Positions 4,067 through 27,819 of a stretch of DNA of 32,000 bases are shown here, one piece after another. The position numbers were made by a program, and so were the translations under genes. The notes beneath the pieces were generated by a model. That model made no database searches. It was given only the letters and a program-made list of their open reading frames with translations, and was not told the DNA's origin. Numbering within the stretch: position 1 is the first letter of the stretch; each line of letters begins with the position of its first letter. Origin of the DNA: Candidatus Nanoarchaeia archaeon (lineage in GTDB: Archaea > Nanobdellota > Nanobdellia > CSSed11-243R1); assembly GCA_028713895.1 (NCBI GenBank), contig JAQTNH010000001.1, forward strand, positions 546,979-578,978, read 5' to 3'.

Positions 4067-7000
4067 TTATTCTCCTTTCAAATCCAGTACAGTCTCTGCT
4101 ACCGCCAGCTTGCGGATTCCATCGTATACCTTTATTGTAAGCGCATGCTCCTTGGACTCTATCCTGTCTGAAAGCAGATACTTATCCGCCATTAACAATA
4201 CATCATTTGCAGACACCTTGTACGGGCCAAACAGCTCAAATATCTTTGTTGATTTCCCATCGTTCATGTTAAACTCAATGTATACATTTTCAAGATTTTT
4301 GCCCCAAACATTGTTAACCAAAATATACAAGTCAAGAGTGTTATCTTCCTTGTTATAACTGGCTGCAACAGCTGAGCTGGGCATGCTGACTTTTACATTT
4401 GCGGTTTCTTCAGCAACAATCCTGTCCCCTGACAGCACCCTGAACACAACTTTTTTGTTCGCAGACTCTGTTATTGGAACCAGCGATTTTATGTTTACGT
4501 CAATTTCTTCCCCAGGCATTATCTTGTCTGCAACGAAGATATGCTTATCAGCCCATTCAGTAAGCTTGGGATTTTTAACTGAACCAACAAAGCCCCATCC
4601 TACAAGGTCTACAAAGTTCCATCCCACTTTTTTGCCGTAATGCATTTCATTGACTACCGGCTTTTCGTCTGGGCAGTCAACATCCAGGTAGACATTTTCC
4701 AAAGGCTGGTCTCCTGTGTTTTTAATTGTATAAACAAGCTCTTTTTCAGTGAGCATGTTGCATTCCAAATCATTAATCTGTTGTGCGGTTCCATTAACTT
4801 TTTCTAACAGTTCAATACCCTCATATTCACCCTGGCAGGAACCACAGTCTTGCGGGCAGGTGGAGCAAAGCTCTCCTGGGCTGCACATGCTGTCTCCGCA
4901 CCTTAGCGCAGTTATGTTAGACGGAACAAGCCCTGATCCGGACGGACGGCCTCCTCCGCTGGGCGCTTCTTCTGCAGCCGCTATTAGGATATAGTAACGA
5001 TATTCTGTGCTGTTCGCGTGCCCAAAGCTGTCATTTGAGTACCACATGTATGAGTAATTCCCTATTGCCAGCCCTGTCAGTGTTATTGAATATGCATTTC
5101 CGTTTTGGGTTATACCCCCTCCAGACAACGTGTAATTGGTTCCGTTGAACTCAAACACAGCTTCGTCTACACCAGTCATATCAGCCCAGTCTATTGTGAA
5201 TGTGTAGCTTCCGCCTTCTTCAGCCGGACTTGCGGGCGAGGCGGCATTATTGCTCCACATTGGCGCTGTTGTGTCAATGGTGAAAGTTAGGCTTGTTGAG
5301 TTAAGATTGCCTGCGCTGTCATTGGCGTAACCCGTAATTGTGCTGTTTCCTTCCGGGAATATTATGTAGACAGGTACAATATAGCTTACATTTGTGCCGT
5401 TCCAATTGTACCAGACATTGCTTGCCCCATCTATAGTTAAGTTCAACAATTGAGTTGCGTTATCATACGCTGTGCTTGTCGGGCTTGCAATTGTGATTGT
5501 TGGCGCGACTGTGTCAAGAGTCACGTTTATTGTTGCTGTTAAATTTGTGTGTCCGACAATATCAATTGTTGTTGCGTTGACATAGTAATCTCCATCAGCA
5601 AGACTGGTGAAGTTTGCAAAGAATGGCGATGTTGAGCTTGTTAAGTTGCTTACGAGGCTTGTTGAATTGTACAGGTAGACTGTTATGCCTGCAAGACTGC
5701 TGTCATCTGAAGTCACATTTACTTCTATGAAATCCTGCGAAACATTGCCTGAAGTTGTCGGGCTTGCAAATGCAATTGCCGGATATATTGTGTCCACATC
5801 AAAATTCACGAAATCATAAATGTCATTGTAGATATCACTGCATTCAAATGCGGCGTTGTGGCTTCCTTCAGTCATACTGCTGTTTGAGTCATACCAGTGT
5901 GTGGCTGAGTCATTGCCCATTGACAGATATGGGGCGCTGTCAAGCGAGTAATTGCAGGAAGTTGCATTGGCGCTTGTTGTTAAATTAAACCAGACTTCTG
6001 AAGTGTTGTAGTATATGCCTGTCGGGGAATCAATAACAAAGCTGAACGCGCTTGTGTTCACTGTTATGTTCCTTGTTTCTGTGTAATTAAAGTTGCCAAC
6101 ATCGTCATATGCGGTTACATTGTAATAATATGTCCCATTGTCAAGCCCTGTCCAGTTCACAAAGTTGGGATGATTTGTATATGTTGTGCTGTTTACAAGC
6201 CCGCTTGAGTTGTACAGGTAGTATGTGAAATTGGCAAGAATAGGCTCAGTTATGGAAACATTAGCTACAATATAGGTTTTCACTGTGATTACGCCTGAGT
6301 TCCTGGTCGGGCTGTTGAATTCAATCTGCGGCGCAGTTGTATCCAAAATGATTGACATCATCGAAGTTGTCTTGTTGTTGCCTGCTGAGTCGTTTGCTAC
6401 AGCATGCAAGTAGTACTGTCCATCAGGCAGACTTGTGAAATTAGTAAATAAGGGAGAAATTGTGCTTGACCCTTCGCTTACATGTCCTGCTTCACTAGCG
6501 CCTGAGCTGTTATGCAGGTGGATTGTAATCGTGTCCAGGTGCAGGTCGCTTGCGGATGCGTTAGCTTCTATATAACTTTGGGAATAAGTTCCTGCTCCTG
6601 TTGTCTGGGGTATGAACAATATTGTTGGTTTGACTGTATCAAGCGTGATGTTTATTGTTGCAGTTGAATTTGTGTTTCCTGCCAAGTCTGTTGCAGTCGC
6701 GTTCAGGTAATAGTCTTCATTCGGCAAGCCTGTGAAATTGACAAAGAGACCAGTTGAACTGCTGCCTGAGCTGTTCACCAAGCCTGTTGAGTTGTAAATA
6801 TAAACAGTTATGTTTGCGAAGTGCAAGTCGCTTGCGCTGACATTTGCCTGTATGTAGCCCTGTGAGAGATTTGATGATGCTGTTGTGCCTGATACAAATT
6901 CAATCTGCGGCTTTGTGTTGTCAACTGTAAAGTTGCCGGTCATTGTGTTGCTTCTCGAGTAAAGTTCAGCCGTATCATTTTCAAAGACAATGACTCTGAC

Positions 7001-10000
7001 AGAATAGTTCCCATCAGGCACAGTAGTCGTATTCCACATATACCTTGTTGAACTCAAATTACCATAGCCAGTTACCACGCTTGAATTGAATGTCAAATCT
7101 GGGTTAAGCAGTGTTATGTTGAACTGGACATTATTGCTTTCTTCGTCTAAAACATCAGTCCAAGTAATATTGACGTTTCCATTCACAATTTGATTAGCAG
7201 ATGGTATTAATACAAAAGGTTCGGTTGGACCATCATTTATTGCTGTAATCGTAAAGTTTGATTTTTCTGTATTATTAATTGCGCCATAGCTGTCATTTGT
7301 GAAGACGGTTACATTGTAAACTCCAGCAGCACCTGTGTCAGTAAACACGTTTGTTTGATATCCAAGATGGGTTACATAAAAATCATCCCACGTTGCAGAT
7401 AACGAACCCCACTCAGACGCATATGAATCTGTTTCAAAAGTTGGATACACTGCCTTGCTTATATTGACATTATTTTGCGTTGCTTCCAGTGTCCAAGTGC
7501 TGTCTGTATTGTTCCATGTGTAGAACGTGAAATTATAACCCACTCTTGTTATCCTGAATTTGCCATTTGTGTCATTCGTATCCCTTGAAGATATATAGGC
7601 ATCAATGACTCCATCTTCGATGTAAACACCATATTGAAGCGTTGAACCTGTCCAATTTGATAAATCCAATGAAACTGATTTTAGAGTGCGTCCAGATATC
7701 GGGGCTTCTGAAATCATGAACACTAATTCAGAATCCTGCTGCAAGCCACTGGTCAGATTGAATGTTATGTTCATGTCAAAGTCGCCATAGGTCGGGTAAT
7801 TCATGAATATGCGGCAGTAAGCCCCTGTATTAGGGCTTCCGTCTCCGGAGATTGCAGTGTAAGCTTTTCCAGAAACATTTGAATTGATGTTTGCCACACA
7901 AGTTTGGTTTGGCCCAATAGTACTGTTTTCAATATGATATATTACGTTCATCAAACTGAATGCAAATGAATCGTAATCCCCGCCCGTGTACAAAGTAATG
8001 TTTGTTGAGGTTCCGTTTGGCACTGTAACTGTCGTATATTTGGTGTTTATTCCGTCCTTGTCAGTGATGTTGGCTACAAGCGGCACAGGGAATCCCTCAT
8101 CAAAAGTCTCGTCCAGCGGTGAAACAATGATTACACTTGGAGCGTAGTCTACCCTTACTGTCCGTGGTTCGCTGACATTCCAGTTGCTTGTACTGTCATT
8201 TGCATAAACTTTGTAACTGTACAAATCCTCAGAAAGTCCGGTTACATTGTAGTACCTGTTGGTTCCGCTTCCATCCATTGTGTAATTTGTACTGTTCCAG
8301 TCAAGGATTGCTGTGCTAAGCGCTTCGTTGCCTGTGATATTTATGTAAGTCCAATTGTATGTCCAGGCTGTTCCATTGTCTGGTGTGGGACTGACAAATG
8401 TTATGTTTGGCGCTGCTTGGTCTATTGTTACGTTTCTTGTTTCTGTTGAATTGCTGTTGCCTGCCGTGTCATTGCACCAGGCATAAAATGCATATGTCCC
8501 GTCTGTAAGCCCTGTCTTATTTTCCCAGAACAAATCTCCGGCGCTGTTGTCGAAGCTTTCATTAGCCCCGTTCCAGCCGAACACCACTGTATCGCGGTTT
8601 GTATCATTGCATGTCACATTTACGAATATCCAGCCCTGGCTCAGGTTTGCCTGCGGCGTGGTTGTCGGGTTATAATAAACAGACGGGTTTGTCAAGTCAA
8701 CTGTAAAGTAAACAACACCGCTTGAATTAAAGTCACCCGAAGAATAGTTGCAGTAGAATGTAACGTTGTGCGTTCCTTCAGCCACAGTGCTTAAGTTGTA
8801 ACTATGGAAAAGCGTGTCGTTATCCATTGTAACATTTGCCGCGTTATCAAGCGAGTAGCCGCACCAGTCTGTCAATCCTGTGGTTAAGTTAAACCATATT
8901 GACGACGTATTATAAGTGCTGTTTGTCGGCGACTCTATTGTGATTATCTGGGTGGATGTATCAATGATAACTGTCCGTGTCCCGCTTACATTCATGTTTC
9001 CTGCAGAGTCGTTTGCATAAACTTTGTATGTGTATGTTCCATCTGCAAGTGATGTCTTATTAGCCCAGCAGGTTACATTTGAACCGCTGCCGACTTTTGC
9101 CATGCTTTCATTTGTTCCATTCCATTCAAGCAGGCAGGAATCAACAGCCACATTGTCTATTATGCTCGCGTTTATTGTTGTCCAGTCATAAGCTATTGTG
9201 GCTGCATCCAATTGAGTTGGTGCAATGAATGTTATGTTTGGGGGGGTTACATCACTTGCAACAACCTCGTAGGAATCAAACCTGCTGATGTTTATTGCCG
9301 GCAGGTATATTGTGCGGTTACCTGTATAGAAAGTGCACTGGCTGGTTATGTCTGCTGGAACACCGCTTATATATTTTAGCACAGTAATGTTCCAGCCGCT
9401 TCCAACACCATAACCAGAGTAATTTGTCCATACTGTCAGATTATTAATCTGCAAGTCGCTTACCAGTATTGAGACGATTGTTATGTTCCAGGTGATGTTC
9501 GCAGATGTATTTGATATAAGACGTTCCTCGTCCCTGATAGAATCCAAAAACAATGAATCAACTGTCTCGTTTATCTCACTGAATGCCGGAATCATTTCAG
9601 TTGTCCACGTAATTTGATTGACTGAGTTTATTGTTGCAGTTTCATTTGGTCCTGCAGAAGCATTGTCAGAGGCGAGCAAGCCGCCAGTAGAATTGTACAC
9701 ATAAGTCGTATTTGGCGCTATGCTGTTCGGGTAGAACGCCAGTATCCTGGACAAGAAGATGTACCTGTCCTGTGAAGCAGCATCCCTGGAATTATTAAAA
9801 TTAATTACATATCTCCGTGTAGAATTTGAAGTGCTGTTCGGGCCTAATGTGTAACCTGGGTCCAGCTGATAACTGAGCACCATCGTGCCGTCAAAATTCA
9901 ATCGCTGTGCAGATTTTATGAATATGTTGGCGGGTTCATTGGTGTAGTTGTAGGATATATTAACCTGCTCAACAACAGGAGAAGTACAGTTCAGATACAA

Positions 10001-13000
10001 CGCCTCTCCGATATAAAATCCTGAGTCTATCTTGCTGGTTTCAATTCCGGTATAGTTGGACTCCACTATTGTGGGCGTATCCGCAGGGATAGTGACTGGG
10101 TCTATACAGCCAAGGTATACGGGCTCCCATATGTGCGGCGAACTGAATTTACAAAGGATAACCTTGCATGCGGTGTCATTTACCGACATGTTCATGCGGA
10201 ATGTAAACGGCGGATTGAACAAATAGGAATTCACAAAGCTGCAGTCGGCATTGGACCCACAAAATATTATCGGGTCTATGATGTTCAGCCCTGTGCTTAG
10301 GTTAACATCATAGGTGCGGGTATGCGGAATTCCATCGGTTGGCTCTTTCCTGATATAATGTGTTGTCCATATGTCAGTATCATATGTTCTATTCGTAAAC
10401 TCCCACAGATAGCCATAGAACCATACCTGGGCTGTTGTGGTATTGTTTGCGGTATCATAATTTGATTTCGAACATGTTATGTTAAACTTAACTGTGTCAT
10501 ACAAATCAAAAGTTGAGATGTTGCCTGTGTAATTCCCGCTGGATAAATTATAATCCAAGTCCAGGATTGCCGCCTGGCTGGAGGACTGATTATTCAGCAC
10601 AGAACAATTTGCGCCAAGTATCGGATTCCCAAGATTGTCCAAGTATCTTGCATTGAAATTTATGTAAATGTCATAGCCTGAACCTGGGGAACGTCCCTGT
10701 GGATATGTTTCATTGTCAGTGCTGAATGTCACTGTTGTTGGTATTGACTGGACTATGAAACTCTGGATTCCAGTCTGGTTCGGATTGCCTGCAGAATCAT
10801 TTGCCCAGAAATACCATGAAACATTTGTTCCTGCAGCAGCTGTGATTGCCGTAATGTTTTCGGAAACATTCGTTGTTCCGCTAAATGGAACAAAGCTTGA
10901 GTTGACCCAGGCGCCGCTCTGGTTGTTTGAGAAGATATAGCCAGTCAAATTGATATTGTCATTCCAGGTTGCGTTGAACTTAATTGTGTCATTCCAGTAA
11001 ACATTTGTTGCGTTTATTGACGCGTTGAACCACTGCGGTGCTGTTGCGTCAGCCGTGAAAATAACCGAATTCGTAAAGACTGTTCCTGCAGTGTTGTTTG
11101 CAGCGATATGCAGCGTGATAACTCCCTGCGCAACAATTATTGTTGTATTGCTGCAATCATAAGTCGTGTTTGTTGCCCAGCTGTCTGTTGAGTACCAGCA
11201 TGTATCTATGCCTGTACCTGCGATTGTTGTGTTAAGAATTATGCTGGTTGTGTTGTACACTGTACTGGACGGGGAGTTTATTGTAATTATTATAGTCCCA
11301 GTGCTAAGCGTAAGGTTCCTAGTTTCAGTGAAGTTGTAATTTCCAGCTTTGTCATAAACTGTTGCATTATAGTAATAAGCGCCGTCTGCAAGCCCTGTCC
11401 AGTTAATCATCGTCGGGTAAGATGTGTACGCTGTGCTGTTAACTAAAGTTGTGTTGTACAGGTAGTATGTGAAATTCTTCAGGTCGGACTCGTTAATGCT
11501 TACATTTGCGGCAATCCAGTTTAGATTAACAGTTATGCCTGAACTGTTTGTTGGGGCTGTGAATTGTATCTGCGGATAAGTTGTGTCCACATAAACAAAT
11601 CGCGTATCTGTCTGGTTGATGTTGCTTGTCGTGTCGTTTATCCAGGCTGAAAAGTTATAAGCGCCGTCTGAAAGCCCAGTCTTGTTTGACCAGTAGACAT
11701 CGCCTGCATTGTTGGCAAATGCTTCTGGAGTGCCGTTCCAGTATAACAGCACAGTGTCCTTGTTCAAATCAGCCGCGGTTGCATTAACCAGTATCCAATT
11801 TCGGTTATACCATGTATCATTCGCATCTGTTGAGGGGTTATAATAAACTTGTGGCTGTGTTGCTCCCAATACTATCGTATAATTGCCTTCGCTTGCCCAG
11901 ACAGGATTGCTTGAGGAGTCTTTGCCATAGCAGTTCCATATAAATGAGCCCTCGTAAGGCAGTGTGAACGTATAGTTGCTGCTGTTTGTTGTTCCGCTTA
12001 GCGAGGTTGTGTTTGCATAAATTTGCGAATTGGTGCTGTTCCAGATGTATAGCGTAAGGTTTGAAATCTGATAACTGTCAGTAATGTTGCATCTGAAAGT
12101 CTGGCTGGCACTATCTGTTATTGTGCTGTTTGCGGGTGAAATAAGATGCACGGCGGGTGCTGTTGTGTCTTGTATTGCAAAAGAACTTGTGTTTGATGCA
12201 CTGGTATAATTAGCATCTCCTGTGGTGTTGCATATGTAATTCCAGGCGCTTACATTAAGCAGGGTGGCTGTGCTATTCTCAGTCGCAGTCACATTAGTCC
12301 CGTTCCTGTAAAGCGCCCCGCCAATAGTGCATGAACAGTTAGCAGTCAATAGCGCCCCATATTCCTGCGGACTCGTCTTGTCAAAAGTAAGACTACATGT
12401 GGGCGTTGCCTGACTAACAGTCAGATTCCAAGCCATGCCTGTTGCATTGTCCAGATAATTTGCATTGCCGGTTGCATTTGCCTTGTAAACATATAATCCT
12501 GCACCAAATGTTGCAACTTCAGACTGGGGCGATGCTCCGCTTGCAACCTGTGTTCCGTTCCTGTACAAATAAGCAGTTCCAGCTGCTGCGCTTGCTGTTG
12601 CATTGCTTGCCTGTCCATAACTCTCTGTCAGGTTAGCTGCGCTTCCATTTAACAGAAGTGTTACTGGATTGGTTGCTTTGTCCATCACGAAAGTGCTTGA
12701 GTTTGATGCGTTCGTATAATTAGCATTTCCTGTTGTGTTGCACATGTAGTTATAAGTGCCAGCGCCGAGTGATATAGGATTACCATTCTCAGTGGAGTTT
12801 ACATCTGCCCCGTTTCTATAAAGCGTGGCAGCTCCAACAAAACATGAGCAAGTTGCAGTCAGGTCTGTTCCATAAGGCTTCGGAGATGTCTGGTCAAATA
12901 TAAGCGAACAGTTGTTTGCTTTGAGATTATTAATTGTAAAGTTTGATGAATAACCATATGAGCAAAGTGAATTATTGTCGCATGCCTCAACACGTATCAA

Positions 13001-16000
13001 GTAATCCCCGTTTGTTGCTGCTGTGCTGTTCCATCTGTATGAAAGATTAACCGAGTTATTGGACTGTATTGTCTGTGCAAATGTTAAGTTTGGATGGACG
13101 AGGGATATATTGTAATAAGCAATAGGATACTGATTTGGAGACAATGCTGCTGTGTAATTGATAGTGATATTTCCCGAGTAATAGCTTTCATTGGGCTGGT
13201 AAACATACGGCGGTGTCGGGGGCAAACCGCTTAAATTAAGCGTATCCAGTATGACTGGTGAACATTCTCCATTGCCCAGCGTGTCATTTGCACAAACATA
13301 ATAGTATAATATCTCTGTGCTGTTATACTGGTGCAGGTGTGCATCTACAGTTCCAGTCAGATTAGTCCATGCGCCACCTTTGTTTGTTGAGTTCTGGGTC
13401 GTGTCAGTTCTTGAAACATTTGTTATATAATATATATCCCAGCCCTGTACGCCGCTTCCTGTTGGGTCAAACATGAAATATGAAACAGGAGTCACTTTTA
13501 TTGTTCCTATCATCCCGTTTGTTACATTTATTGCAAAGATAGCTACATAGTGACTTGAATGGACAGAATGTGTGTGGTTATATGTTGTCGCTGCAGCTAA
13601 ACTGTAAAAGTTAGTACAAGTGCCAGCCTGTGCTGGAGCAGATGGATTTCCAGTTGTGTATGTTGAGTTACAGTACCATACTTTAAGCAGGGCTGATGTT
13701 GCTGACCTGTTCAATGCCATAAACTCAAAAAAGGAGTACTGTTTTGTATTGGATACATTAAAGAGCCTTAATTTGAGCAAGTCATTAGTTTTACTTGTTA
13801 GGTTGTATGTTGTATGCGGCGTTAATTCTATGCCCCCTTCGTTAAGGTTGTATGTTCCAGGGTATATCTGGTTGTCAAGCAACTGCCAAAGCCACATGTC
13901 TGATGTGTTTGAGGTCCAGTTCTTTGTCTGGTATCCGCAATAACCATCACTTCCATTAAAAGTTGTCCAGCAGTCAGATGTGCTTATATTTGTTTTGTAA
14001 TAAAGTGAAATTGAGCTTACATTTAATCCGTTTGCAGCAGTCAGATTATAAGTTATGTTCAGTGGCATACCTATGTTGCCAAAAGATGTCACATCAGCAG
14101 GTGTTTGGTTTATCCATGTTATATTTGGAGACTTAACTGTAAATGTCCAGTTAGATAACGCAAAAGAACACTGGCTTGAATTGTCGCAGGCATGACAATT
14201 CCATTTTATTGCGCCGTTTGACAGTCCTGTTCGTGCAAAAGTCGTGTTGTTGCCCGTGCCTGTTACGGTTGTTGTCCCGTTTGACTGCCATGTGCCGGAA
14301 TAGTTCCAATACAATGTTAAGTTTGCCAGCTGAGCAGTATCTGTTGCATTGCATATGAAGTTTGCGCTGTTCAGTGTTGTTACATTTCCGTTTGCTGGTG
14401 AAACCAAGTCTACAGTTGGTGCGGTGTCAGCAGCTGCACCACAGGCTCCGTCCCATTGGGTTCCATTAAGATAATATTTTTTCAATGTTGTGGCATTCGA
14501 AGAGTTTGAATAAGCAATTATGAATTTTCCCGGGCATATTTGCTGCCCTGTTACAGACTCCTTGCCCATGACACTCATTAATTTGTAATCTATGTTTTCT
14601 TCGCTATCAACAGTAAACGCGGCTATTTTTGTCCCATTTCCATAATAAGTTGCCGCTACAATATTTCCAGCAGTCGCATTATACCATGCCAATACAAAAG
14701 AGTCATTTGCATAATTTTCCGCCTTTACAGCAGCAACATCCAGCCAAGTGCCTGTAGTCGGCCCTGCATCCGGTTCGATTACTGTATTTGCGATTGATGC
14801 GGTTCCGTTTTTGTAGATTACTGTATAGCCCAAATCTTGGTCATTTGACAGATAAAATGCATAAACAAACTTGTCATTGTCAAGCCCAGCAACACTCAGC
14901 CTTGAATCGGTGCCTGCGGTTGGGTCAACATTTATCCTGGCAACAGCTTCAGCCCCTGTTCCGTCATATATGATAAACGCAAGGTCATTTACCCCCTGGT
15001 CCCACCATCCGTAAACAAATCGTGTGGAATTTATTGCAGAGACGCTTATGAAATCAACAAGAGCAGACGGAGTTGCAACTGTTGGGTCAACATCAATTAT
15101 CCCGGTCAGATTAGTTCCCGCATTATCAAAAATCTTAAATGAAGCATCCCCTTCAGAATCATCTGACCAGCCAACAACAAACCTGTTGCCCATCTGTGTA
15201 GCAGACAAATCAGTTATATGGCTGTCGCCTGTTGCTGCCGCAATGTTGTCATCAACAATAATATCACTTGTTAATTTTGCACCGCTGATATTATAAATTG
15301 CAAGAGTGATATTGCAAATATTAGCTGCTGTATCATGGTCATTTGTCCATGCAACAACAAAGTGCGTCTGGTTTATTGCTGAAACCGCTATTCTTGGATA
15401 AAGGGGGAGGTTTGCGGAATCAATAATCCCGTTTGAAATGACGGTTCCATTTGTGTTATAAACCTTGAAGTAAGCAATATTTGTGTCAGCCACATAAGCC
15501 ATAACAAAAGTAGTGTTGTCTATCGGAGTTGTGTCCAAATCCTTGGAGGAGTTTTGTGAAACAATTTCAGCAAACCCTGGATCCTCTGGCGTCAGTGTGA
15601 CGTTATACAGCTCACCAGGAGTTATTGACTTAATTGTTATCCATTCCCCCTCGCAGGTCTGGTTCGTGAAGTTCCAGTCTTTGCATTTCTGCAATATATT
15701 CCCCTTTGCGGTGACTGTAACATTTGCAATTGTGAAATTGATTGCAGTCGGGTCAATTGCATAAGTCTGGATGGCTTCCCCATTGTTAGCAGGCTCATCA
15801 ATGTTGACAATATTGGTAATGTTGGTGTCTATGTTGACGTCATCAAATACAATTTGTTTTATTGTGCTGTTTACAGGCTCTACAACAATGTCATATGTAC
15901 CTTTTTTGATTTTCTTTGAGTGAGAAACTCCAGTATCATTATAAACAACATCACCTTTTTTGTCTATCAATTTAAGCGTGTGATTAATAGGCTCTTTTTT

Positions 16001-19000
16001 TGAGTTTTCCACAGTCTCATTTAAAATCACACTTACAGGAGTGTTAAAGAAATCAACATCGTATAGTTCCCAGTATTCGCCGTTGCCGTTGTTTACTATC
16101 TTGAACTCAAACTTTGCAGCGCTTAAATTTCCTGCAGTGAAATTAAGCTCATTCCAGACAAGGTCATTGTAAGCTCCGGAGTATACCAGTTCCCATGCAT
16201 TGTCCTTGAAAACACTGATGTTAACCATGTCCATGTCAACGCCCTTTGCATAGAAGCGCAGCATGTCTGAATTTATTGAGGGCGTGATATTGAGTATTAT
16301 GGGGAAGCTCCAGTTACCGTCAGCGTCATTTAGGTTATGATAGCTCTTTGCTTTGGACTCAGAGTCAAGAACATCATCGTATGCACGCTCCTCCCAGGTC
16401 CATTCATTGTTTGGATCGGAATAACCATTCGGGGACAGCCAGCCATAGTCAGGTATTCTTGTTGTGAATTCAACATATGAGCCATTTGCAATTCCCTTGC
16501 TGTTGTTAGCCTGAGCTCTGTAGTAGTAGGTTGTGTTAAACTCCAAACCCGATAATATGTATGTGAAATTGCTTCCTGTGCTTCGCCTGTCAGACAGCCA
16601 TGCTGTTGTGTTTCCATAACTTGTTGTTAGCCCGTATTCAAAGCGCACATCGCATACTTCGCCTCCGTCAGAAGCCAGTGTGCCGTGCATAACTGCAGAT
16701 GTTTTCCCAACTGAAGTTGCATTGTTGGTTGTAACAACAGGCAGATATGATGCAGATTTGTTTGAGAACTGGAACTCATAAAGCCAGAATACTGTGCCGC
16801 TGGCACTATAGTGCCATCTGAAACGCGCTGCATTGACTGTAATATCAGTTCCATAGCCCATTTCATCCCAAGTGCTGTCAAGCATAGAGCCATTGCGGAT
16901 AGTCACCCATGAATTGCTGTTGGCATCAAAAACATCCACCTGTACTGCGTCTGTGTATCCATATCCATAGTCCGCGTATACCCTGACTTTGTCTGAAGTT
17001 ATGTTTTGGCTTAGGTTAAACGTAATAAAAGAACCCCATGTTGCGATTGACGAGCCTGATGCGTCAGACGCATAGGTCCCTGTATTGTCATCATAAGCTT
17101 TCTGCCCTTTTGTCCAGTTACCATCAGCTGTCCAGCTTGTCGGCACTAACCAGTTGCTGTCATGTATGTAATCAAACTCTATGTATGCACCAGGATTATT
17201 ATCTGCGTTTACAATCTTTAAGAGGAAAGTATCACTGTATCCTGTCATTCCGGATATTTCTATGTTGTACTGCATGTCTGTTGTTACTGTGATTTCTCCC
17301 ACGCGGACAGAACCCGTTTCATCATAGATTTCTACTTTCGTATTCAGCCCCTGCATGTTTCTGGGATACAGGTTTATTACGTTTCCATTCGTCATATCGT
17401 CGTCGAAGTACACCCGCACATATTCGTTGTGATATATCGGTTCGGACCAGATGAAATCGCGGGTTATTGTTTCGTTGAATATGTCTGATACAAAGTTCTT
17501 GTCTGCGTCCAGATGTTCAGCAGACAAGACATATATTTCCTTGAATGCGGGGTCCTCTGCAGTTAGCTCGAACGTGTATTCTTTCCCCGAATTTATTTTC
17601 TGAGCTAATATCCACTTGCCGTTGCATGCCTGTCCTTCAAAGCTCCAGTTGGCGCATTTGTAAAGAGCGTTCCCTTTTGCAGTGACTGTGACATCTGCGC
17701 TGGTGAAATTGATTGCAGTCGGGTCAATTGCATAGGTCTCAACGCTGCCTTCTGATTCAGGAGTGTCGTCAACTTTTATGAATCCTGTCTGGTTCTCGGA
17801 AACTATCATGTCGTGAATAATGATTCCAGTTATCGGGCCTTCCTGCAATTCGACAGTAACCTCATAAATTCCAGTGGGGATTGTTTCGTTGGCGCCCTCT
17901 TCAGAAGCTATTTCAAAGGACTGCACTGAAGATGTGCCAAACACATCTTCCTGCGCTTTTGGAGTGAACAACATTGTTGCATGGACAACTTCGCCGTTTG
18001 CATTGATTATTGTGTAGTTTGATAATGTAACATTTTCAGGAGGTGTTTGATTCAAAGTTTCGTTTGTTTCACTTTCGTTTGATATCTCTTCGGTTATATT
18101 TTGATTCTCAATAAGCGTGTAGTCAATTTCAGTTATTGTCACAGAAACATTTCCAGTGCTTACAAAATAAAGTGTATACGAACTCTGGTTAAGACTGTAT
18201 TCATCAAGCATACATGTTTCATCGCAAAGGAAGTTGAATGATTTGTAGATTACTTCCTGCTGAGCTTCTTCTGTTGTATTCTCCGAAACTGTTTCTTGTG
18301 CTGGGGCTTCTTCGACAGGAGTTTGTTCAGGGGAAGATATTTCTATTGTTTCAGAAGGTGTTCCAGTTTCTTCAGCTATTGCGCGCCCTTTTATTGCATA
18401 CGCTGTAATTCCAGATTTTTTAGTCGAAGCAAGTTCAGAAGTGTCGAGAATTAAAAGACGATTTCCAGAATTGTCTTCCAGATACATTGTAGTGTTGCCT
18501 TCGCCGATTGTGTAGCCTGAAATCATTACGGATTTAAGGGTTGTATTTTCATTGTAGTTCTGCATGTCCCAGCTGTAATTGTATTCATCAGAGCTAAATG
18601 TTAATTGTAACTCTTCTTTGTATTGGTGTTCCTGTCCAGAAAACATCCCTGTCATAATAAAAATGGGAGACAATGCAGCGCATAATATCAGGATTAACGA
18701 TGCATACATTAACAGTTTTGAATCTTTTTTTGGCGGTTCTGAAAGAGAAAACACAGGAGTCTTCGGCATTTTTGCACAGTCAACTTCGTTTAATACCACT
18801 GAATTTTTAAGATTAACAGAAAAGAAGCGTTTATTGTGCGCAGAAACTCTCTGGCTGACATAATTCTTTTCAATAAGCTCCTGCATGTACCTGTACGCAG
18901 GTTCGTAAGAGATTGAGAGCTTTTCCTGAATTTCGTTTAGCGTATGTTCCTTATTGGGTTCAACAAGCATAATTTTAAGAATATCCAGATGACTGCGGCT

Positions 19001-19060
19001 TTTTTTGGGCGTATTTGGGTTATTGTATTCTCCAATAACTGAGTTTTCGGGCTCAGGCAT
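4067..19060 (-). CDS. Giant (4,997 aa) type-II membrane surface protein: cytoplasmic N-terminal wHTH, one TM helix, repetitive ectodomain of ~4,850 aa (Ig-like, FN3-like, propeller-like) rich in N-x-S/T (adhesin/surface-layer-like)
   Basis: Single uninterrupted 14,994-nt ORF with a TATA box ~26 nt upstream of its ATG. Domain and repeat evidence is itemised in the sub-features below. There is no C-terminal anchor, so the N-terminal TM is the only membrane segment I see. Confidence 0.95.
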   Translation of the reverse strand: MPEPENSVIGEYNNPNTPKKSRSHLDILKIMLVEPNKEHTLNEIQEKLSISYEPAYRYMQELIEKNYVSQRVSAHNKRFFSVNLKNSVVLNEVDCAKMPKTPVFSLSEPPKKDSKLLMYASLILILCAALSPIFIMTGMFSGQEHQYKEELQLTFSSDEYNYSWDMQNYNENTTLKSVMISGYTIGEGNTTMYLEDNSGNRLLILDTSELASTKKSGITAYAIKGRAIAEETGTPSETIEISSPEQTPVEEAPAQETVSENTTEEAQQEVIYKSFNFLCDETCMLDEYSLNQSSYTLYFVSTGNVSVTITEIDYTLIENQNITEEISNESETNETLNQTPPENVTLSNYTIINANGEVVHATMLFTPKAQEDVFGTSSVQSFEIASEEGANETIPTGIYEVTVELQEGPITGIIIHDMIVSENQTGFIKVDDTPESEGSVETYAIDPTAINFTSADVTVTAKGNALYKCANWSFEGQACNGKWILAQKINSGKEYTFELTAEDPAFKEIYVLSAEHLDADKNFVSDIFNETITRDFIWSEPIYHNEYVRVYFDDDMTNGNVINLYPRNMQGLNTKVEIYDETGSVRVGEITVTTDMQYNIEISGMTGYSDTFLLKIVNADNNPGAYIEFDYIHDSNWLVPTSWTADGNWTKGQKAYDDNTGTYASDASGSSIATWGSFITFNLSQNITSDKVRVYADYGYGYTDAVQVDVFDANSNSWVTIRNGSMLDSTWDEMGYGTDITVNAARFRWHYSASGTVFWLYEFQFSNKSASYLPVVTTNNATSVGKTSAVMHGTLASDGGEVCDVRFEYGLTTSYGNTTAWLSDRRSTGSNFTYILSGLEFNTTYYYRAQANNSKGIANGSYVEFTTRIPDYGWLSPNGYSDPNNEWTWEERAYDDVLDSESKAKSYHNLNDADGNWSFPIILNITPSINSDMLRFYAKGVDMDMVNISVFKDNAWELVYSGAYNDLVWNELNFTAGNLSAAKFEFKIVNNGNGEYWELYDVDFFNTPVSVILNETVENSKKEPINHTLKLIDKKGDVVYNDTGVSHSKKIKKGTYDIVVEPVNSTIKQIVFDDVNIDTNITNIVNIDEPANNGEAIQTYAIDPTAINFTIANVTVTAKGNILQKCKDWNFTNQTCEGEWITIKSITPGELYNVTLTPEDPGFAEIVSQNSSKDLDTTPIDNTTFVMAYVADTNIAYFKVYNTNGTVISNGIIDSANLPLYPRIAVSAINQTHFVVAWTNDHDTAANICNITLAIYNISGAKLTSDIIVDDNIAAATGDSHITDLSATQMGNRFVVGWSDDSEGDASFKIFDNAGTNLTGIIDVDPTVATPSALVDFISVSAINSTRFVYGWWDQGVNDLAFIIYDGTGAEAVARINVDPTAGTDSRLSVAGLDNDKFVYAFYLSNDQDLGYTVIYKNGTASIANTVIEPDAGPTTGTWLDVAAVKAENYANDSFVLAWYNATAGNIVAATYYGNGTKIAAFTVDSEENIDYKLMSVMGKESVTGQQICPGKFIIAYSNSSNATTLKKYYLNGTQWDGACGAAADTAPTVDLVSPANGNVTTLNSANFICNATDTAQLANLTLYWNYSGTWQSNGTTTVTGTGNNTTFARTGLSNGAIKWNCHACDNSSQCSFALSNWTFTVKSPNITWINQTPADVTSFGNIGMPLNITYNLTAANGLNVSSISLYYKTNISTSDCWTTFNGSDGYCGYQTKNWTSNTSDMWLWQLLDNQIYPGTYNLNEGGIELTPHTTYNLTSKTNDLLKLRLFNVSNTKQYSFFEFMALNRSATSALLKVWYCNSTYTTGNPSAPAQAGTCTNFYSLAAATTYNHTHSVHSSHYVAIFAINVTNGMIGTIKVTPVSYFMFDPTGSGVQGWDIYYITNVSRTDTTQNSTNKGGAWTNLTGTVDAHLHQYNSTEILYYYVCANDTLGNGECSPVILDTLNLSGLPPTPPYVYQPNESYYSGNITINYTAALSPNQYPIAYYNISLVHPNLTFAQTIQSNNSVNLSYRWNSTAATNGDYLIRVEACDNNSLCSYGYSSNFTINNLKANNCSLIFDQTSPKPYGTDLTATCSCFVGAATLYRNGADVNSTENGNPISLGAGTYNYMCNTTGNANYTNASNSSTFVMDKATNPVTLLLNGSAANLTESYGQASNATASAAAGTAYLYRNGTQVASGASPQSEVATFGAGLYVYKANATGNANYLDNATGMAWNLTVSQATPTCSLTFDKTSPQEYGALLTANCSCTIGGALYRNGTNVTATENSTATLLNVSAWNYICNTTGDANYTSASNTSSFAIQDTTAPAVHLISPANSTITDSASQTFRCNITDSYQISNLTLYIWNSTNSQIYANTTSLSGTTNSSNYTFTLPYEGSFIWNCYGKDSSSNPVWASEGNYTIVLGATQPQVYYNPSTDANDTWYNRNWILVNATAADLNKDTVLLYWNGTPEAFANNAGDVYWSNKTGLSDGAYNFSAWINDTTSNINQTDTRFVYVDTTYPQIQFTAPTNSSGITVNLNWIAANVSINESDLKNFTYYLYNTTLVNSTAYTSYPTMINWTGLADGAYYYNATVYDKAGNYNFTETRNLTLSTGTIIITINSPSSTVYNTTSIILNTTIAGTGIDTCWYSTDSWATNTTYDCSNTTIIVAQGVITLHIAANNTAGTVFTNSVIFTADATAPQWFNASINATNVYWNDTIKFNATWNDNINLTGYIFSNNQSGAWVNSSFVPFSGTTNVSENITAITAAAGTNVSWYFWANDSAGNPNQTGIQSFIVQSIPTTVTFSTDNETYPQGRSPGSGYDIYINFNARYLDNLGNPILGANCSVLNNQSSSQAAILDLDYNLSSGNYTGNISTFDLYDTVKFNITCSKSNYDTANNTTTAQVWFYGYLWEFTNRTYDTDIWTTHYIRKEPTDGIPHTRTYDVNLSTGLNIIDPIIFCGSNADCSFVNSYLFNPPFTFRMNMSVNDTACKVILCKFSSPHIWEPVYLGCIDPVTIPADTPTIVESNYTGIETSKIDSGFYIGEALYLNCTSPVVEQVNISYNYTNEPANIFIKSAQRLNFDGTMVLSYQLDPGYTLGPNSTSNSTRRYVINFNNSRDAASQDRYIFLSRILAFYPNSIAPNTTYVYNSTGGLLASDNASAGPNETATINSVNQITWTTEMIPAFSEINETVDSLFLDSIRDEERLISNTSANITWNITIVSILVSDLQINNLTVWTNYSGYGVGSGWNITVLKYISGVPADITSQCTFYTGNRTIYLPAINISRFDSYEVVASDVTPPNITFIAPTQLDAATIAYDWTTINASIIDNVAVDSCLLEWNGTNESMAKVGSGSNVTCWANKTSLADGTYTYKVYANDSAGNMNVSGTRTVIIDTSTQIITIESPTNSTYNTSSIWFNLTTGLTDWCGYSLDNAANVTMDNDTLFHSYNLSTVAEGTHNVTFYCNYSSGDFNSSGVVYFTVDLTNPSVYYNPTTTPQANLSQGWIFVNVTCNDTNRDTVVFGWNGANESFDNSAGDLFWENKTGLTDGTYAFYAWCNDTAGNSNSTETRNVTIDQAAPNITFVSPTPDNGTAWTYNWTYINITGNEALSTAILDWNSTNYTMDGSGTNRYYNVTGLSEDLYSYKVYANDSTSNWNVSEPRTVRVDYAPSVIIVSPLDETFDEGFPVPLVANITDKDGINTKYTTVTVPNGTSTNITLYTGGDYDSFAFSLMNVIYHIENSTIGPNQTCVANINSNVSGKAYTAISGDGSPNTGAYCRIFMNYPTYGDFDMNITFNLTSGLQQDSELVFMISEAPISGRTLKSVSLDLSNWTGSTLQYGVYIEDGVIDAYISSRDTNDTNGKFRITRVGYNFTFYTWNNTDSTWTLEATQNNVNISKAVYPTFETDSYASEWGSLSATWDDFYVTHLGYQTNVFTDTGAAGVYNVTVFTNDSYGAINNTEKSNFTITAINDGPTEPFVLIPSANQIVNGNVNITWTDVLDEESNNVQFNITLLNPDLTFNSSVVTGYGNLSSTRYMWNTTTVPDGNYSVRVIVFENDTAELYSRSNTMTGNFTVDNTKPQIEFVSGTTASSNLSQGYIQANVSASDLHFANITVYIYNSTGLVNSSGSSSTGLFVNFTGLPNEDYYLNATATDLAGNTNSTATINITLDTVKPTILFIPQTTGAGTYSQSYIEANASASDLHLDTITIHLHNSSGASEAGHVSEGSSTISPLFTNFTSLPDGQYYLHAVANDSAGNNKTTSMMSIILDTTAPQIEFNSPTRNSGVITVKTYIVANVSITEPILANFTYYLYNSSGLVNSTTYTNHPNFVNWTGLDNGTYYYNVTAYDDVGNFNYTETRNITVNTSAFSFVIDSPTGIYYNTSEVWFNLTTSANATSCNYSLDSAPYLSMGNDSATHWYDSNSSMTEGSHNAAFECSDIYNDIYDFVNFDVDTIYPAIAFASPTTSGNVSQDFIEVNVTSDDSSLAGITVYLYNSTSLVSNLTSSTSPFFANFTSLADGDYYVNATTIDIVGHTNLTATINVTLDTVAPTITIASPTSTAYDNATQLLNLTIDGASNVWYNWNGTNVSYIVPVYIIFPEGNSTITGYANDSAGNLNSTSLTFTIDTTAPMWSNNAASPASPAEEGGSYTFTIDWADMTGVDEAVFEFNGTNYTLSGGGITQNGNAYSITLTGLAIGNYSYMWYSNDSFGHANSTEYRYYILIAAAEEAPSGGGRPSGSGLVPSNITALRCGDSMCSPGELCSTCPQDCGSCQGEYEGIELLEKVNGTAQQINDLECNMLTEKELVYTIKNTGDQPLENVYLDVDCPDEKPVVNEMHYGKKVGWNFVDLVGWGFVGSVKNPKLTEWADKHIFVADKIMPGEEIDVNIKSLVPITESANKKVVFRVLSGDRIVAEETANVKVSMPSSAVAASYNKEDNTLDLYILVNNVWGKNLENVYIEFNMNDGKSTKIFELFGPYKVSANDVLLMADKYLLSDRIESKEHALTIKVYDGIRKLAVAETVLDLKGE
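4070..4834 (-). other. Giant protein aa 4743-4997: compositionally distinct, sequon-poor C-terminal (distal) domain
   Basis: It has one N-x-S/T (NGT) in 255 aa, against 8 and 9 per 100 aa in two upstream windows I counted (aa 2301-2400, 4051-4150). It is K/E/V-rich. The segment ELVYTIKNTGDQPLENVYLDVD is weakly reminiscent of CARDB-type beta-sandwich domains. Confidence 0.6.
4835..4900 (-). other. Giant protein aa 4721-4742: Cys-rich motif CGDSMCSPGELCSTCPQDCGSC
   Basis: Seven Cys in 22 aa in the pattern CG-x-x-x-C-x-x-GE-x-C-x-x-C-x-x-DCG-x-C. Related motifs (CNNTICEPGENLTNCCIDCGC, CGNGICEDLYGKESHRSCDDDC) occur in the secreted protein at 28980-29882. Confidence 0.7.
5516..6922 (-). repeat. 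Giant protein aa 4047-4515: run of ~90-100-aa Ig-like modules, one block of many similar modules between aa ~1546 and ~4600
   Basis: Modules start D(N/T)(T/V)(K/A)P(Q/T)I(E/L)F..., carry ...ANVSASDLH..ITVY(I/L)YNS(T/S)... and end ...Y(Y/L)(L/V)NAT(A/T).D.AGN.N.T...I.L. Related modules occur at aa 1546-1643, 2299-2398, 2404-2585, 3272-3640 and 4517-4596. Confidence 0.75.
12173..12910 (-). repeat. Giant protein aa 2051-2296: three tandem ~85-aa repeats
   Basis: Unit 1 is CSLIFDQTSPKPYGTDLTATCSC...LYRNGADV...GAGTYNYMCNTTGNANYTNASNSSTF and unit 3 is CSLTFDKTSPQEYGALLTANCSC...LYRNGTNV...SAWNYICNTTGDANYTSASNTSSF. A Cys-less middle unit sits between them (...AYLYRNGTQV...GAGLYVYKANATGNANYLDNATG). 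Confidence 0.8.
14441..15514 (-). repeat. Giant protein aa ~1183-1540: seven tandem repeats of ~50-60 aa (beta-propeller-like)
   Basis: Successive units start FVMAYVAD, FVVAWTND, FVVGWSDD, FVYGWWDQ, FVYAFYLS, FVLAWYNA and FIIAYSNS. Each is followed by a strand-like segment (e.g. ASFKIFDNAGTNLTGIIDVDP, LAFIIYDGTGAEAVARINVDP, LGYTVIYKNGTASIANTVIEPD). Confidence 0.55.
15560..15769 (-). repeat. Giant protein module copy 2 (aa 1098-1167), paralogous to 17531-17740
   Basis: See copy 1. The preceding ~45 aa are also parallel in both copies (IYEVTVE...IIHDMIV...IKVDDTPE versus TYDIVVEP...IVFDDVNI...IVNIDEPA). Confidence 0.85.
16457..16747 (-). other. Giant protein aa 772-868: fibronectin type III-like domain
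   Basis: YLPVVTTNNATSVGKTSAVMHGTLASDGGEVCDVRFEYGLTTSYGNTTAW...FTYILSGLEFNTTYYYRAQANNSKGIANGSYVEFTT matches the common prokaryotic FN3-like pattern (T..AT.V..TSA.L.G.L...G....V.FEYG.TTSYG...GL.P.TTYYYRA.A.N..G...G....FTT). It is flanked by two paralogous ~135-aa modules (16751-17155 and 16046-16444) that share W..P......W.....AYDD... Confidence 0.6.
17531..17740 (-). repeat. Giant protein module copy 1 (aa 441-510), paralogous to 15560-15769
   Basis: ETYAIDPTAINFTSADVTVTAKGNALYKCANWSFEGQACNGKWILAQKINSGKEYTFELTAEDPAFKEIY compared with QTYAIDPTAINFTIANVTVTAKGNILQKCKDWNFTNQTCEGEWITIKSITPGELYNVTLTPEDPGFAEIV gives roughly half identical residues. It includes a 32-nt exact DNA identity (17703-17734 = 15732-15763). 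Confidence 0.85.
18641..18715 (-). other. Giant protein aa 116-140: single transmembrane helix (signal anchor)
   Basis: LLMYASLILILCAALSPIFIMTGMF is 25 uncharged, mostly hydrophobic residues, flanked by KKDSK on the N side and SGQEHQYKEE on the C side. Confidence 0.8.
18776..19060 (-). other. Giant protein aa 1-95: predicted cytoplasmic winged-helix-turn-helix domain
   Basis: SHLDILKIMLVEPNKEHTLNEIQEKLSISYEPAYRYMQELIEKNYVSQRVSAHNKRFFSVN fits the helix, HTH (TLNEIQEKLSIS / YEPAYRYMQEL) and beta-wing layout of ArsR/MarR/TrmB-type wHTH domains. The first 115 aa contain zero N-x-S/T sequons. The basic PPKKDSK segment directly precedes the TM helix (positive-inside rule). Confidence 0.6.
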
Positions 19061-19189: not shown

Positions 19190-19225
19190 CGTAAGCTGCG
19201 GAAAGAGAAAACATTTAAAATATAA

Positions 19226-27816: not shown

Positions 27817-27819
27817 ACC

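What the first reader, a model, noticed from the sequence alone, without database searches (positions are those of the whole stretch)
4067..19060. A 15-kb gene fuses a cytoplasmic winged-helix DNA-binding domain, through one TM helix, to a surface ectodomain of ~4,850 aa
SEEN: an uninterrupted 4,997-codon ORF. Aa ~24-85 have a wHTH pattern (HLDILKIML...TLNEIQEKLSISYEPAYRYMQELIEKNYVSQ...KRFFSVN). A basic PPKKDSK segment then precedes a single 25-residue TM helix (aa 116-140). Everything after that is Ig-like, FN3-like or propeller-like repeat modules. The first 115 aa contain no N-x-S/T, while the ectodomain has 8-9 per 100 aa in the two windows I counted. That matches an N-in/C-out topology with a heavily N-glycosylated exterior. 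The TATA box sits 26-27 nt upstream of M1, the same geometry as other genes here, so the wHTH is probably part of the translated product and not an annotation artefact. ESTABLISHED: membrane-tethered one-component regulators exist (ToxR/CadC/TcpP in bacteria, ArnR in Sulfolobus), and giant surface proteins are typical of DPANN and other episymbiotic archaea. INFERENCE: I am not aware of a described protein that combines the two. It could couple surface or host contact, or loss or shedding of the ectodomain, directly to transcription, either at the membrane or after proteolytic release of the wHTH.
Basis: partly seen in the sequence, partly recalled or inferred. Interest (0 to 1): 0.85.

Follow-up and report, generated by a model that had tools for sequence, protein, structure and literature searches.

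The report
Giant archaeal surface protein with self-regulating DNA-binding head
A 4,997-residue sugar-coated surface protein of a tiny DPANN (Nanoarchaeia) archaeon starts with a small cytoplasmic DNA-binding domain whose likely binding sites sit on the gene's own promoter, so this very costly coat or adhesin protein probably controls its own production.

Summary
Window 4067..19060(-) is one 4,997-codon ORF, identical to NCBI MDD5239421.1 ("hypothetical protein", Candidatus Nanoarchaeia). It has a winged-helix (wHTH) at aa 20-85, a disordered basic linker, one hydrophobic segment at aa 117-140, and a 4,855-aa exterior with 305 N-glycosylation sequons (107±8 expected).

A second assembly (99.99% identical) and three divergent homologues carry the same fusion, so it is not an artefact.

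New here: all nine distinct genes found that encode this wHTH carry the palindrome TATTGG-N5-CCAATA at their 5' end. Five (perhaps six) are surface-protein genes and three are MNT antitoxins of HEPN-MNT modules. Seven palindromes are exact and two have one mismatch. About 0.01 exact matches are expected in the 96 kb scanned. The window has four TATTGG boxes within 111 bp around TATA and ATG.

Most likely the wHTH binds these operators and autoregulates the gene, probably by repression.

Transmembrane transcription regulators are already known to be common in archaea, so this is a new variant (giant ectodomain, self-operator), not a new kind.

Unresolved:
- whether the hydrophobic segment is a stable anchor or a cleaved signal peptide; a conserved P-x-I-T-G-F motif follows it;
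- whether the state of the ectodomain is signalled inward.

The parts
4067..19060 (-). Giant gene, 4,997 codons plus stop; product identical to MDD5239421.1
18806..19003 (-). Cytoplasmic winged helix-turn-helix, aa 20-85; recognition helix ...LSISYEPAYRYM...
   Evidence: Pfam sub-threshold hits; PDB MarR hit; AF2 topology; Foldseek hits all winged-helix proteins, nearly all regulators; S-Y-E/Q-P invariant among homologues
18713..18805 (-). Disordered basic linker, aa 86-116, including PPKKDSK. Contains M98 (18767-18769), a possible internal start.
   Evidence: AF2 pLDDT <50 over aa 86-114; sequence
18641..18712 (-). Only hydrophobic segment, aa 117-140 (LMYASLILILCAALSPIFIMTGMF). Either a signal-anchor or the h-region of a cleavable signal peptide; candidate cleavage motif ...IMTG|MF.
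18365..18640 (-). Membrane-proximal conserved module, aa 141-232, shared by ~59 DPANN surface proteins. Beta-rich, with no recognisable known fold.
18161..18256 (-). Second conserved piece of the module, aa 269-300 (F.FLCDETC...LN.SSY.L.F), after a Pro/Thr/Glu-rich linker
4070..18160 (-). Rest of the exterior. Sequon-rich, with clusters of ~90-aa Ig-like repeats at aa ~2400-2700, 3250-3650 and 4040-4700 (nt 10961-11863, 8111-9313, 4961-6943). No C-terminal hydrophobic anchor.
19021..19037 (-). Operator O1, TATTGGagaatACAATA, at +24..+40 of the coding region. One mismatch from TATTGG-N5-CCAATA. The same position holds a one-mismatch palindrome in homologue L004.
19061..19069 (+). Half-site AGTTATTGG on the + strand (reads CCAATAACT on the gene strand), at -9..-1 abutting the ATG. 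Forms a perfect 9-bp inverted repeat with 19032-19040.
19083..19090 (-). TATA box TATTTAAA at -30..-23 from M1 (leaderless geometry)
19114..19123 (-). Half-site box 2, TAGTTATTGG, at -63..-54. Conserved in sequence in L004, about one base nearer its ATG (-61..-52).
19134..19142 (-). Half-site box 1, AGTTATTGG, at -82..-74, 20 nt from box 2
19225..19301 (-). tRNA-Arg(CCT) directly upstream. The same synteny is seen in L001, L004 and L017 (intron-split there).
3203..3994 (-). Downstream gene, 263 aa: N-terminal TM plus basic Trp-rich repeats. Conserved downstream of homologue P0006, so a possible partner.
   Evidence: E=6e-17

Best explanation
The gene encodes an N-in/C-out, heavily N-glycosylated giant surface protein of a Nanoarchaeia (DPANN) archaeon. 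Its first ~115 residues stay in the cytoplasm and fold as a winged-helix DNA-binding domain.

This domain belongs to a small wHTH family that is also used by MNT antitoxins of HEPN-MNT modules. The family recognises TATTGG-N5-CCAATA, two half-sites one helical turn apart.

In the window the sites flank and overlap the core promoter: two half-sites upstream of TATA, one at -9..-1, and a near-perfect palindrome at +24..+40. Binding there should hinder TBP/TFB/RNAP recruitment or promoter escape. The protein would therefore repress its own 15-kb gene, acting as a self-regulating transmembrane transcription regulator that limits output of a very expensive product.

Shown: the architecture, the fold, its conservation, and the association between the wHTH and the operator.
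Inferred: that this wHTH is what binds the operator, that the effect is repression, and that two tethered copies act together. In P0006 the two tandem wHTHs could do this within one chain.
For: - Architecture and fold.
- The fusion is real. A second assembly is 99.986% identical over 7,013 nt including the junction. P0002, P0006 (two tandem wHTHs, 3,773 aa) and P0040 keep wHTH-TM-module. P0006 matches the giant's exterior at ~40% identity through to the C-terminus. dN/dS is ~0.08 on the wHTH.
- Operator. The exact palindrome occurs 10 times in 96 kb of fetched loci, always within ~60 nt of the start of a wHTH gene. About 0.01 matches are expected from base composition (my own arithmetic, not a tool output). 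It is also seen in L016 and L017. The window's only match with one mismatch or none lies at the giant's 5' end.
- The window has four TATTGG boxes in 111 bp against a background of 0.75 per kb.
- Box 2, TATA and O1 are conserved with L004 although the proteins are only 47% identical.
- The same palindrome precedes wHTH-MNT genes with a different C-terminal fusion and from another phylum (Aenigmarchaeota). The wHTH is the only common denominator.
- Family members without a wHTH (L013, L014) have no TATTGG box in their upstream regions.
- Start at M1: TATA at -30..-23, as for at least 7 other genes.
Against: - No binding experiment exists, and the link between wHTH and operator is correlative.
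- Pfam scores are below the curated cut-offs.
- In the window and L004 the N5 palindrome has one mismatch, and the half-site layout differs from the other genes.
- Most members of the surface-protein family carry other N-terminal heads or none. DNA binding is therefore not needed for the family's core role.
- In L004 the homologous ORF stops after 70 aa, though this is a 614-bp contig.
- L017 has no canonical start codon before the wHTH.
- Three further exact GCAGTTATTGG copies inside the neighbouring M17 peptidase gene are unexplained.
Confidence: 0.6

Rival explanations
1. Export-coupled release. The hydrophobic segment is the h-region of an unusually long, cleavable signal peptide. Signal peptidase would cut after ...I-M-T-G(138) and free the exterior. 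The wHTH plus h-region would remain as a membrane stub, which stays or is released by a signal-peptide peptidase. One repressor molecule would then be made per exported giant. This modifies the best explanation and does not exclude it.
For: A motif [RKEN]P-x-[ILV]-T-G-[FLYM] directly follows the hydrophobic stretch in 39 of 59 family members. It has the look of a signal-peptide c-region: a helix breaker near -5, an aliphatic residue at -3 and Gly at -1. Four members also have a C-terminal TM, which makes sense if the N-terminal one is removed.
Against: The hydrophobic stretch is ~21-24 residues, which is long for a signal peptide. The window giant has no other anchor. An ITG[FY] motif recurs at the end of the module, so the motif may be structural. 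No signal-peptide predictor was available.
Confidence: 0.2
2. The palindromes are bound by a different, soluble regulator, for example a free paralogue. The fused wHTH would then be a decoy, a protein-protein adaptor or a cytoplasmic anchor, as the RodZ HTH binds MreB rather than DNA.
For: Other family members carry non-wHTH cytoplasmic heads in the same position. That suggests a generic cytoplasmic role. The RodZ analogy is from my own knowledge.
Against: The palindrome travels with the wHTH across two unrelated fusion contexts and across phyla. The recognition helix is the most conserved part of the domain. No soluble paralogue was seen in the window; the 96-aa wHTH ORF at 28291-28581 has no TATTGG box nearby, but its relation to this wHTH family was not tested.
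Confidence: 0.1
3. Translation starts at M98. The product would be a plain signal-anchored surface protein, and the wHTH codons would be untranslated or a relic.
For: Every wHTH-bearing homologue also has a Met shortly before the hydrophobic segment. About 24 family members have such short N-termini. A weak TATA-like TATTAAAC lies at -26..-19 from M98.
Against: The TATA geometry fits M1 and not M98. The wHTH is under strong purifying selection and is conserved in frame in four lineages. A minor internal-start isoform cannot be excluded.
Confidence: 0.05
4. The 9-bp inverted repeat around the ATG (19061-19069 and 19032-19040) acts as an RNA hairpin that hides the start codon, not as a DNA operator.
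For: It folds at -11.5 kcal/mol with z=-3.2.
Against: With TATA at -30..-23 the transcript should begin at about the ATG, so the 5' arm would not be transcribed. Boxes 1 and 2 upstream of TATA, and the N5 palindromes of the other eight genes, cannot be explained this way.
Confidence: 0.05

Closest known systems
Transmembrane transcription regulators (TTRs) as surveyed by Demey et al. 2023 (PMC10269533); classic examples are ToxR, CadC and TcpP, and ArnR in Sulfolobus
   Same: A cytoplasmic DNA-binding domain plus a membrane segment in one polypeptide, mostly single-pass, with the DBD acting at the membrane. The survey reports ~4 per archaeal genome.
   Different: The exterior here is 4,855 aa (97% of the protein) and looks like an adhesin or coat, not a small sensor domain. 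The wHTH is of the HTH_24/TrmB/MarR type, not the OmpR/PhoB type. The only predicted target found is the protein's own gene.
wHTH-MNT antitoxins of HEPN-MNT toxin-antitoxin modules in DPANN archaea (P0011, P0050, P0066)
   Same: A homologous wHTH (E=2e-8 to 2e-4) with the same S-Y-[EQ]-P recognition helix. The same TATTGG-N5-CCAATA palindrome sits on their own promoters.
   Different: There the wHTH is fused to a nucleotidyltransferase and followed by a HEPN gene. They are soluble ~215-aa proteins with no TM and no exterior.
RsgI-type anti-sigma factors of Clostridium thermocellum, and eukaryotic Notch/SREBP-type regulated proteolysis (from my own knowledge)
   Same: A large extracellular binding region is linked through one TM to a cytoplasmic transcription-controlling head.
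   Different: No RsgI_N domain was detected, and no cleavage has been shown here. This is an analogy only.
Giant DPANN surface proteins such as the SPEARE proteins of Nanohaloarchaeum antarcticus (from my own knowledge)
   Same: Multi-thousand-residue surface proteins of tiny episymbiotic archaea.
   Different: No protease or nuclease domains were detected. To my knowledge, SPEARE proteins are not described with a DNA-binding head.

Membership tests
Transmembrane transcription regulator (TTR, PMC10269533) | A predicted DNA-binding domain | tested here: met
   wHTH fold. Sequence hits are just under Pfam cut-offs. MarR 3nqo hits at E=0.003. A domain-based census like that paper's could miss this protein.
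Transmembrane transcription regulator (TTR, PMC10269533) | At least one transmembrane region in the same polypeptide | tested here: met
   One hydrophobic segment at aa 117-140. Whether it is retained after export is unresolved.
Transmembrane transcription regulator (TTR, PMC10269533) | Regulates transcription while membrane-bound | not testable with these tools
   Only indirect evidence: operators on its own promoter.
ToxR/CadC/TcpP family | OmpR/PhoB-type winged helix (Trans_reg_C) | tested here: not met
   No Trans_reg_C hit at E<=1. The best hits are HTH_24, TrmB and MarR_2.
Pfam HTH_24 / TrmB / MarR_2 | Score at or above the curated gathering cut-off | tested here: not met
   HTH_24 21.3 vs 21.9 bits; TrmB 20.4 vs 25.6; MarR_2 14.1 vs 27. 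Superfamily-level resemblance only.
MNT antitoxin (HEPN-MNT) | Nucleotidyltransferase domain and an adjacent HEPN gene | tested here: not met
   No NTP_transf_2 or Polbeta hit in the giant. The neighbours are a tRNA and a TM/basic-repeat protein. Only the wHTH and its operator are shared.
DPANN surface-protein family with the conserved membrane-proximal module (unnamed; 65 hits) | N-terminal hydrophobic segment followed by the ...Y.Q.LNL...Y.W.L...L.SVKLSG..G.G..KVYL....G...LILD....ITG module | tested here: met
   59 proteins match aa 137-300 at E<=1e-3. They are named Nanoarchaeota, Woesearchaeota or Pacearchaeota where a name exists.
SPEARE-type giant proteins | Serine protease and restriction-endonuclease domains | tested here: not met
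   No such Pfam hits.
Regulated intramembrane proteolysis substrates (Notch/SREBP/RsgI-like) | Site-1 and site-2 cleavage releasing the cytoplasmic head | not testable with these tools
   The only hint is the conserved P-x-I-T-G motif after the TM. No protease gene was seen in the window.

The most novel reading that the evidence does not exclude
The giant protein counts itself. Two versions are possible. (a) The nascent wHTH, made within the first ~100 codons while RNA polymerase is still near the promoter, binds the operator at +24..+40 in cis. It then blocks further initiation until the chain is pulled to the membrane. (b) Each exported molecule leaves behind, or releases after signal-peptidase and signal-peptide-peptidase cleavage at ...MTG|MF, exactly one wHTH repressor. 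Either way, synthesis of a 15-kb, heavily glycosylated coat or adhesin would be tied stoichiometrically to its export. The other cytoplasmic 'heads' of the same family may do the same with their own promoter repeats: the 85-aa helical type and the KKYI.R.GK..GPYYY type.
Probability: 0.2. Interest if true: 0.8.

Novelty: new variant of a known kind. Interest (0 to 1): 0.62.

Why it matters
Giant surface proteins are the most conspicuous and least understood genes of DPANN episymbionts. They take up more than 1% of a ~1-Mb genome, and nothing is known about how they are controlled.

It would also show that a DNA-binding module is shared with toxin-antitoxin antitoxins (the direction of transfer was not tested). 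It would extend membrane-tethered regulators to a case where the 'sensor' is a 4,855-aa adhesin-like coat protein.

The prediction can be tested in vitro without culturing the organism.

Tried and rejected
- The word-indexed homologue search found nothing with aa 1-200 and almost nothing with two profiles. Only the exhaustive HMMER scan was informative.
- The genome and metagenome scans with the wHTH profile each returned one locus, both already known. The wHTH-giant fusion is therefore rare in public data.
- The membrane-proximal module was modelled with 30 sequences (pLDDT 74). It has no significant PDB fold match (best E=0.46). The idea that it is a SEA- or GAIN-like autoproteolytic domain is unsupported.
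- NCBIfam finds nothing for the giant. Pfam on 500-aa slices adds only Ig-like and weak prealbumin-like hits. No propeller was found.
- Assembly chimera is rejected by the second assembly and by the homologues.
- The idea that TATTGG boxes belong to the upstream tRNA or to an integration site is rejected. L003 and the MNT genes have the palindrome without a tRNA.
- The idea that the boxes are a general promoter element is rejected by the controls.
- Literature searches found no description of a wHTH fused to a giant archaeal surface protein.
Full report
**1. What is in the sequence**

Window 4067..19060(-) is a single ORF of 4,997 codons. Its product is identical to P0068 = MDD5239421.1. That entry is a "hypothetical protein" of a Candidatus Nanoarchaeia MAG and lies on a 956-kb contig.

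The neighbours are ordinary cellular genes: GlmS, a hexapeptide transferase, M17 aminopeptidase, an ATP-grasp protein, AspRS, FKBP and dCMP deaminase. A tRNA-Arg(CCT) lies directly upstream.

The protein has exactly one hydrophobic segment, aa ~117-140. It is preceded by PPKKDSK and followed by an acidic stretch, which fits an N-in orientation.

There is no N-x-S/T before aa 161. The exterior has 305 sequons. Composition-preserving shuffles give 106.7 ± 8.3, and the reversed motif occurs 103 times. Cytoplasmic proteins of the window have 0.2-0.8 sequons per 100 aa. Heavy N-glycosylation of the exterior is therefore a sound inference.

Only Ig-like domains (Big_13, Big_3_3, Big_7) and clusters of ~90-aa internal repeats can be named in the exterior. 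There is no C-terminal anchor.

**2. The N-terminal domain is a winged helix**

- Pfam gives a coherent set of wHTH hits just under threshold (HTH_24 21.3 vs 21.9 bits, then TrmB, HTH_11, IclR, MarR_2).
- PDB phmmer finds a MarR regulator at E=0.003.
- AlphaFold2 without an alignment gives H-H-H-strand-strand at aa 20-82 (pLDDT about 67-81). A disordered linker follows at aa 86-114, then a helix at aa 114-137.
- All 50 listed Foldseek PDB hits are winged-helix proteins: MarR/MepR, PadR, ArsR/SmtB, Fur/Zur, IclR, Z-alpha and TFE.

**3. The fusion is real and M1 is the start**

- A second assembly (GCA_028713185.1) is 99.986% identical over 7,013 nt that include the wHTH-TM junction.
- An exhaustive HMMER scan of 1.84 billion representatives with aa 1-300 found 65 proteins.
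- P0002 (Nanoarchaeota AUK136) is syntenic with the window, sharing ATP-grasp, AspRS, GalT-like and tRNA-Arg.
- P0006 has two tandem wHTHs and is 3,773 aa. Its exterior is ~40% identical to the giant through to the C-terminus.
- P0040 is the third. All three keep wHTH, TM and the same membrane-proximal module.
- Between L017 and L001 the wHTH codons have pN 0.20 against pS 0.73, so dN/dS is about 0.08.
- The TATA octamer lies at -30..-23 from M1. At least seven other genes of the window have the same position.
- The sequence before M98 does not fit that geometry.

**4. New finding: a conserved operator that travels with the wHTH**

In the window the 9-mer AGTTATTGG occurs four times within 111 bp around the start:
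- two direct copies at -82..-74 and -62..-54, upstream of TATA;
- an inverted copy at -9..-1;
- a direct copy at +21..+29.

The last copy is part of TATTGGagaatACAATA at +24..+40. This is one mismatch from the palindrome TATTGG-N5-CCAATA, and it is the only match with one mismatch or none in the 32-kb window.

The exact palindrome sits next to or on the core promoter of every other gene I could find that encodes this wHTH:
- L001/L002 (P0002);
- L003/L016 (P0006), abutting the start, with two further boxes upstream;
- L017 (P0040);
- L012 (P0030, partial);
- three wHTH-MNT antitoxin genes of HEPN-MNT modules: L006-8, L009/10 and L011.

L004 (P0007, 47% identical to the window protein) has the same 10-mer, TAGTTATTGG, about one base nearer its ATG than box 2 of the window. 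It also has a one-mismatch palindrome at +24..+40.

In the 96 kb of loci held the pattern occurs ten times, always at a wHTH gene. From base composition I expect about 0.01. This figure is my own arithmetic, not a tool output.

The TATTGG background is 0.75-1.3 per kb. Two family members without a wHTH have no box upstream.

The only thing these nine genes share is the wHTH, whose recognition helix (L-S-Y-[EQ]-P-x-[YH]-x-[YH]) is its most conserved part. The simplest reading is that the wHTH binds this palindrome and each gene is autoregulated. The half-sites are 11 bp apart centre to centre, as expected for two winged helices on one face of the DNA. The two tandem wHTHs of P0006 fit that picture.

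**5. How it most likely works**

Shown:
- the architecture;
- the cytoplasmic location of the wHTH, from the positive-inside pattern and the sequon asymmetry;
- the association between wHTH and operator;
- the overlap of the sites with TATA, the TSS and the early coding region.

Inferred:
- The tethered wHTH, probably as a pair, occupies these sites.
- Occupancy represses initiation or promoter escape, so the amount of product in the membrane feeds back on a 15-kb, glycan-laden gene.
- The ~30-residue disordered linker gives it reach, and in a very small cell the gene is never far from the membrane.

Whether the exterior's state (host contact, clustering or loss) modulates binding is not addressed by any data here.

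**6. Caveats and rivals**

*(a) The hydrophobic segment may be a cleaved signal peptide.* A motif [RKEN]P-x-[ILV]-T-G-[FLYM] follows the hydrophobic segment in 39 of 59 family members. It resembles a signal-peptide c-region. Four members also have a C-terminal TM. If the N-terminal segment is cleaved, the wHTH stub would be produced one per exported molecule. This is an attractive variant and I could not test it.

*(b) The wHTH is only one of several heads in this family*:
- 17 members have an ~85-aa helical head;
- 6 have a KKYI.R.GK..GPYYY head;
- about 9 have unique heads;
- about 24 have none.

DNA binding is therefore an add-on to the family, not its core.

*(c) An internal start at M98 cannot be excluded as a minor isoform.*

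*(d) The inverted repeat around the ATG could fold as RNA* (-11.5 kcal/mol). The leaderless geometry argues that its 5' arm is not transcribed.

*(e) L004's ORF stops after 70 aa on a 614-bp contig*.

*(f) L017 lacks a canonical start codon before an otherwise intact, selected wHTH*.

**7. Comparison with what is known**

Transmembrane transcription regulators are documented as widespread. The survey counts 50,302 proteins, of which 1,384 are in 367 of 404 archaeal species, and most are single-pass (PMC10269533). This protein meets the two sequence criteria of that class.

It is not a ToxR/CadC-type member, because it has no OmpR-type wHTH. It is not an MNT antitoxin, because it has no nucleotidyltransferase.

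Three things are unusual:
- the size and nature of the exterior;
- the wHTH shared with TA antitoxins;
- the self-operator.

Literature searches found no description of such a fusion. The protein itself is deposited only as "hypothetical".

**8. Verdict**

This is a new variant of a known kind. Interest is moderately high because it yields a sharp prediction that can be tested in vitro for a class of genes that is otherwise opaque.

Noticed in passing
window 19583-19593, 19843-19853, 19999-20009 (- strand, inside the M17 aminopeptidase CDS 19299-20825): Three more exact copies of GCAGTTATTGG, in the same orientation as boxes 1 and 2. Two read A-V-I-G in frame and the third is in another frame. 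Seven of the window's eight exact AGTTATTGG copies lie within 19032-20007. They may be auxiliary half-sites or coincidence.
   Followed up: partly
window 3203-3994 (-) and L003 17367-18680: The gene just downstream of the giant encodes 263 aa: an N-terminal TM (MVFIFGIDIPLIEL...) plus a basic region with repeated WW..[HY][KQ] motifs. It is conserved downstream of homologue P0006 (E=6e-17). It may be a partner protein.
   Followed up: partly
L017 1042-1298: The tRNA-Arg(CCT) upstream of the homologous gene appears to be split by three introns (exons at 1042-1055, 1115-1141, 1199-1218 and 1285-1298). ARAGORN misses the gene in place but calls tRNA-Arg(CCT) on the spliced sequence. L012 begins with what looks like the 3' exon of a similar tRNA.
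   Followed up: partly
L013 1360-1480 and L014 1390-1500: Family members with other cytoplasmic heads have their own promoter repeats. The helical-head gene P0038 has four direct copies of ACATACATAATAAG. The GPYYY-head gene P0027 has two ~30-nt direct repeats (GTAAGTTAACT.TA.AAAAGGGG.AATAAAA). These heads might also be DNA-binding autoregulators.
   Followed up: no
aa 130-143 of the giant (window ~18632-18673) and 39 of 59 family members: A conserved [RKEN]P-x-[ILV]-T-G-[FLYM] motif lies immediately after the N-terminal hydrophobic segment. It looks like a signal-peptidase site. A similar ITG[FY] motif closes the membrane-proximal module.
   Followed up: partly
L004 373-585: The closest divergent homologue of the wHTH (P0007, 47% identity) ends at a stop codon after 70 aa, before the wing, 30 nt from the end of a 614-bp contig. 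It could be a pseudogene, a stand-alone mini-protein or an assembly error.
   Followed up: no
L017 1489-1665: In the P0040 gene the wHTH is in frame and conserved. However, no ATG, GTG or TTG follows the upstream stop until a GTG inside the wing. ATT at 1492 is the only plausible start, and the public annotation therefore omits the wHTH.
   Followed up: partly
window 23920-25353 and 25350-26849 (-): Two adjacent ORFs of 477 and 499 aa overlap by 4 nt. They have no solid Pfam match and appear coiled-coil-rich (weak Baculo_PEP_C and NPV_P10 hits). Their function is unknown.
   Followed up: no
window 28291-28581 (-) and 27629-28294 (+): There is a 96-aa stand-alone wHTH ORF (HTH_27, above the Pfam cut-off). 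A 221-aa ORF with an HTH_12 hit lies on the opposite strand, and their 3' ends overlap by a few nucleotides. Neither has a TATTGG box nearby.
   Followed up: no
window 30130-30807 (-): A 225-aa ORF has an N-terminal hydrophobic stretch ending in LMLGC, which resembles a lipobox. It is a possible lipoprotein.
   Followed up: no
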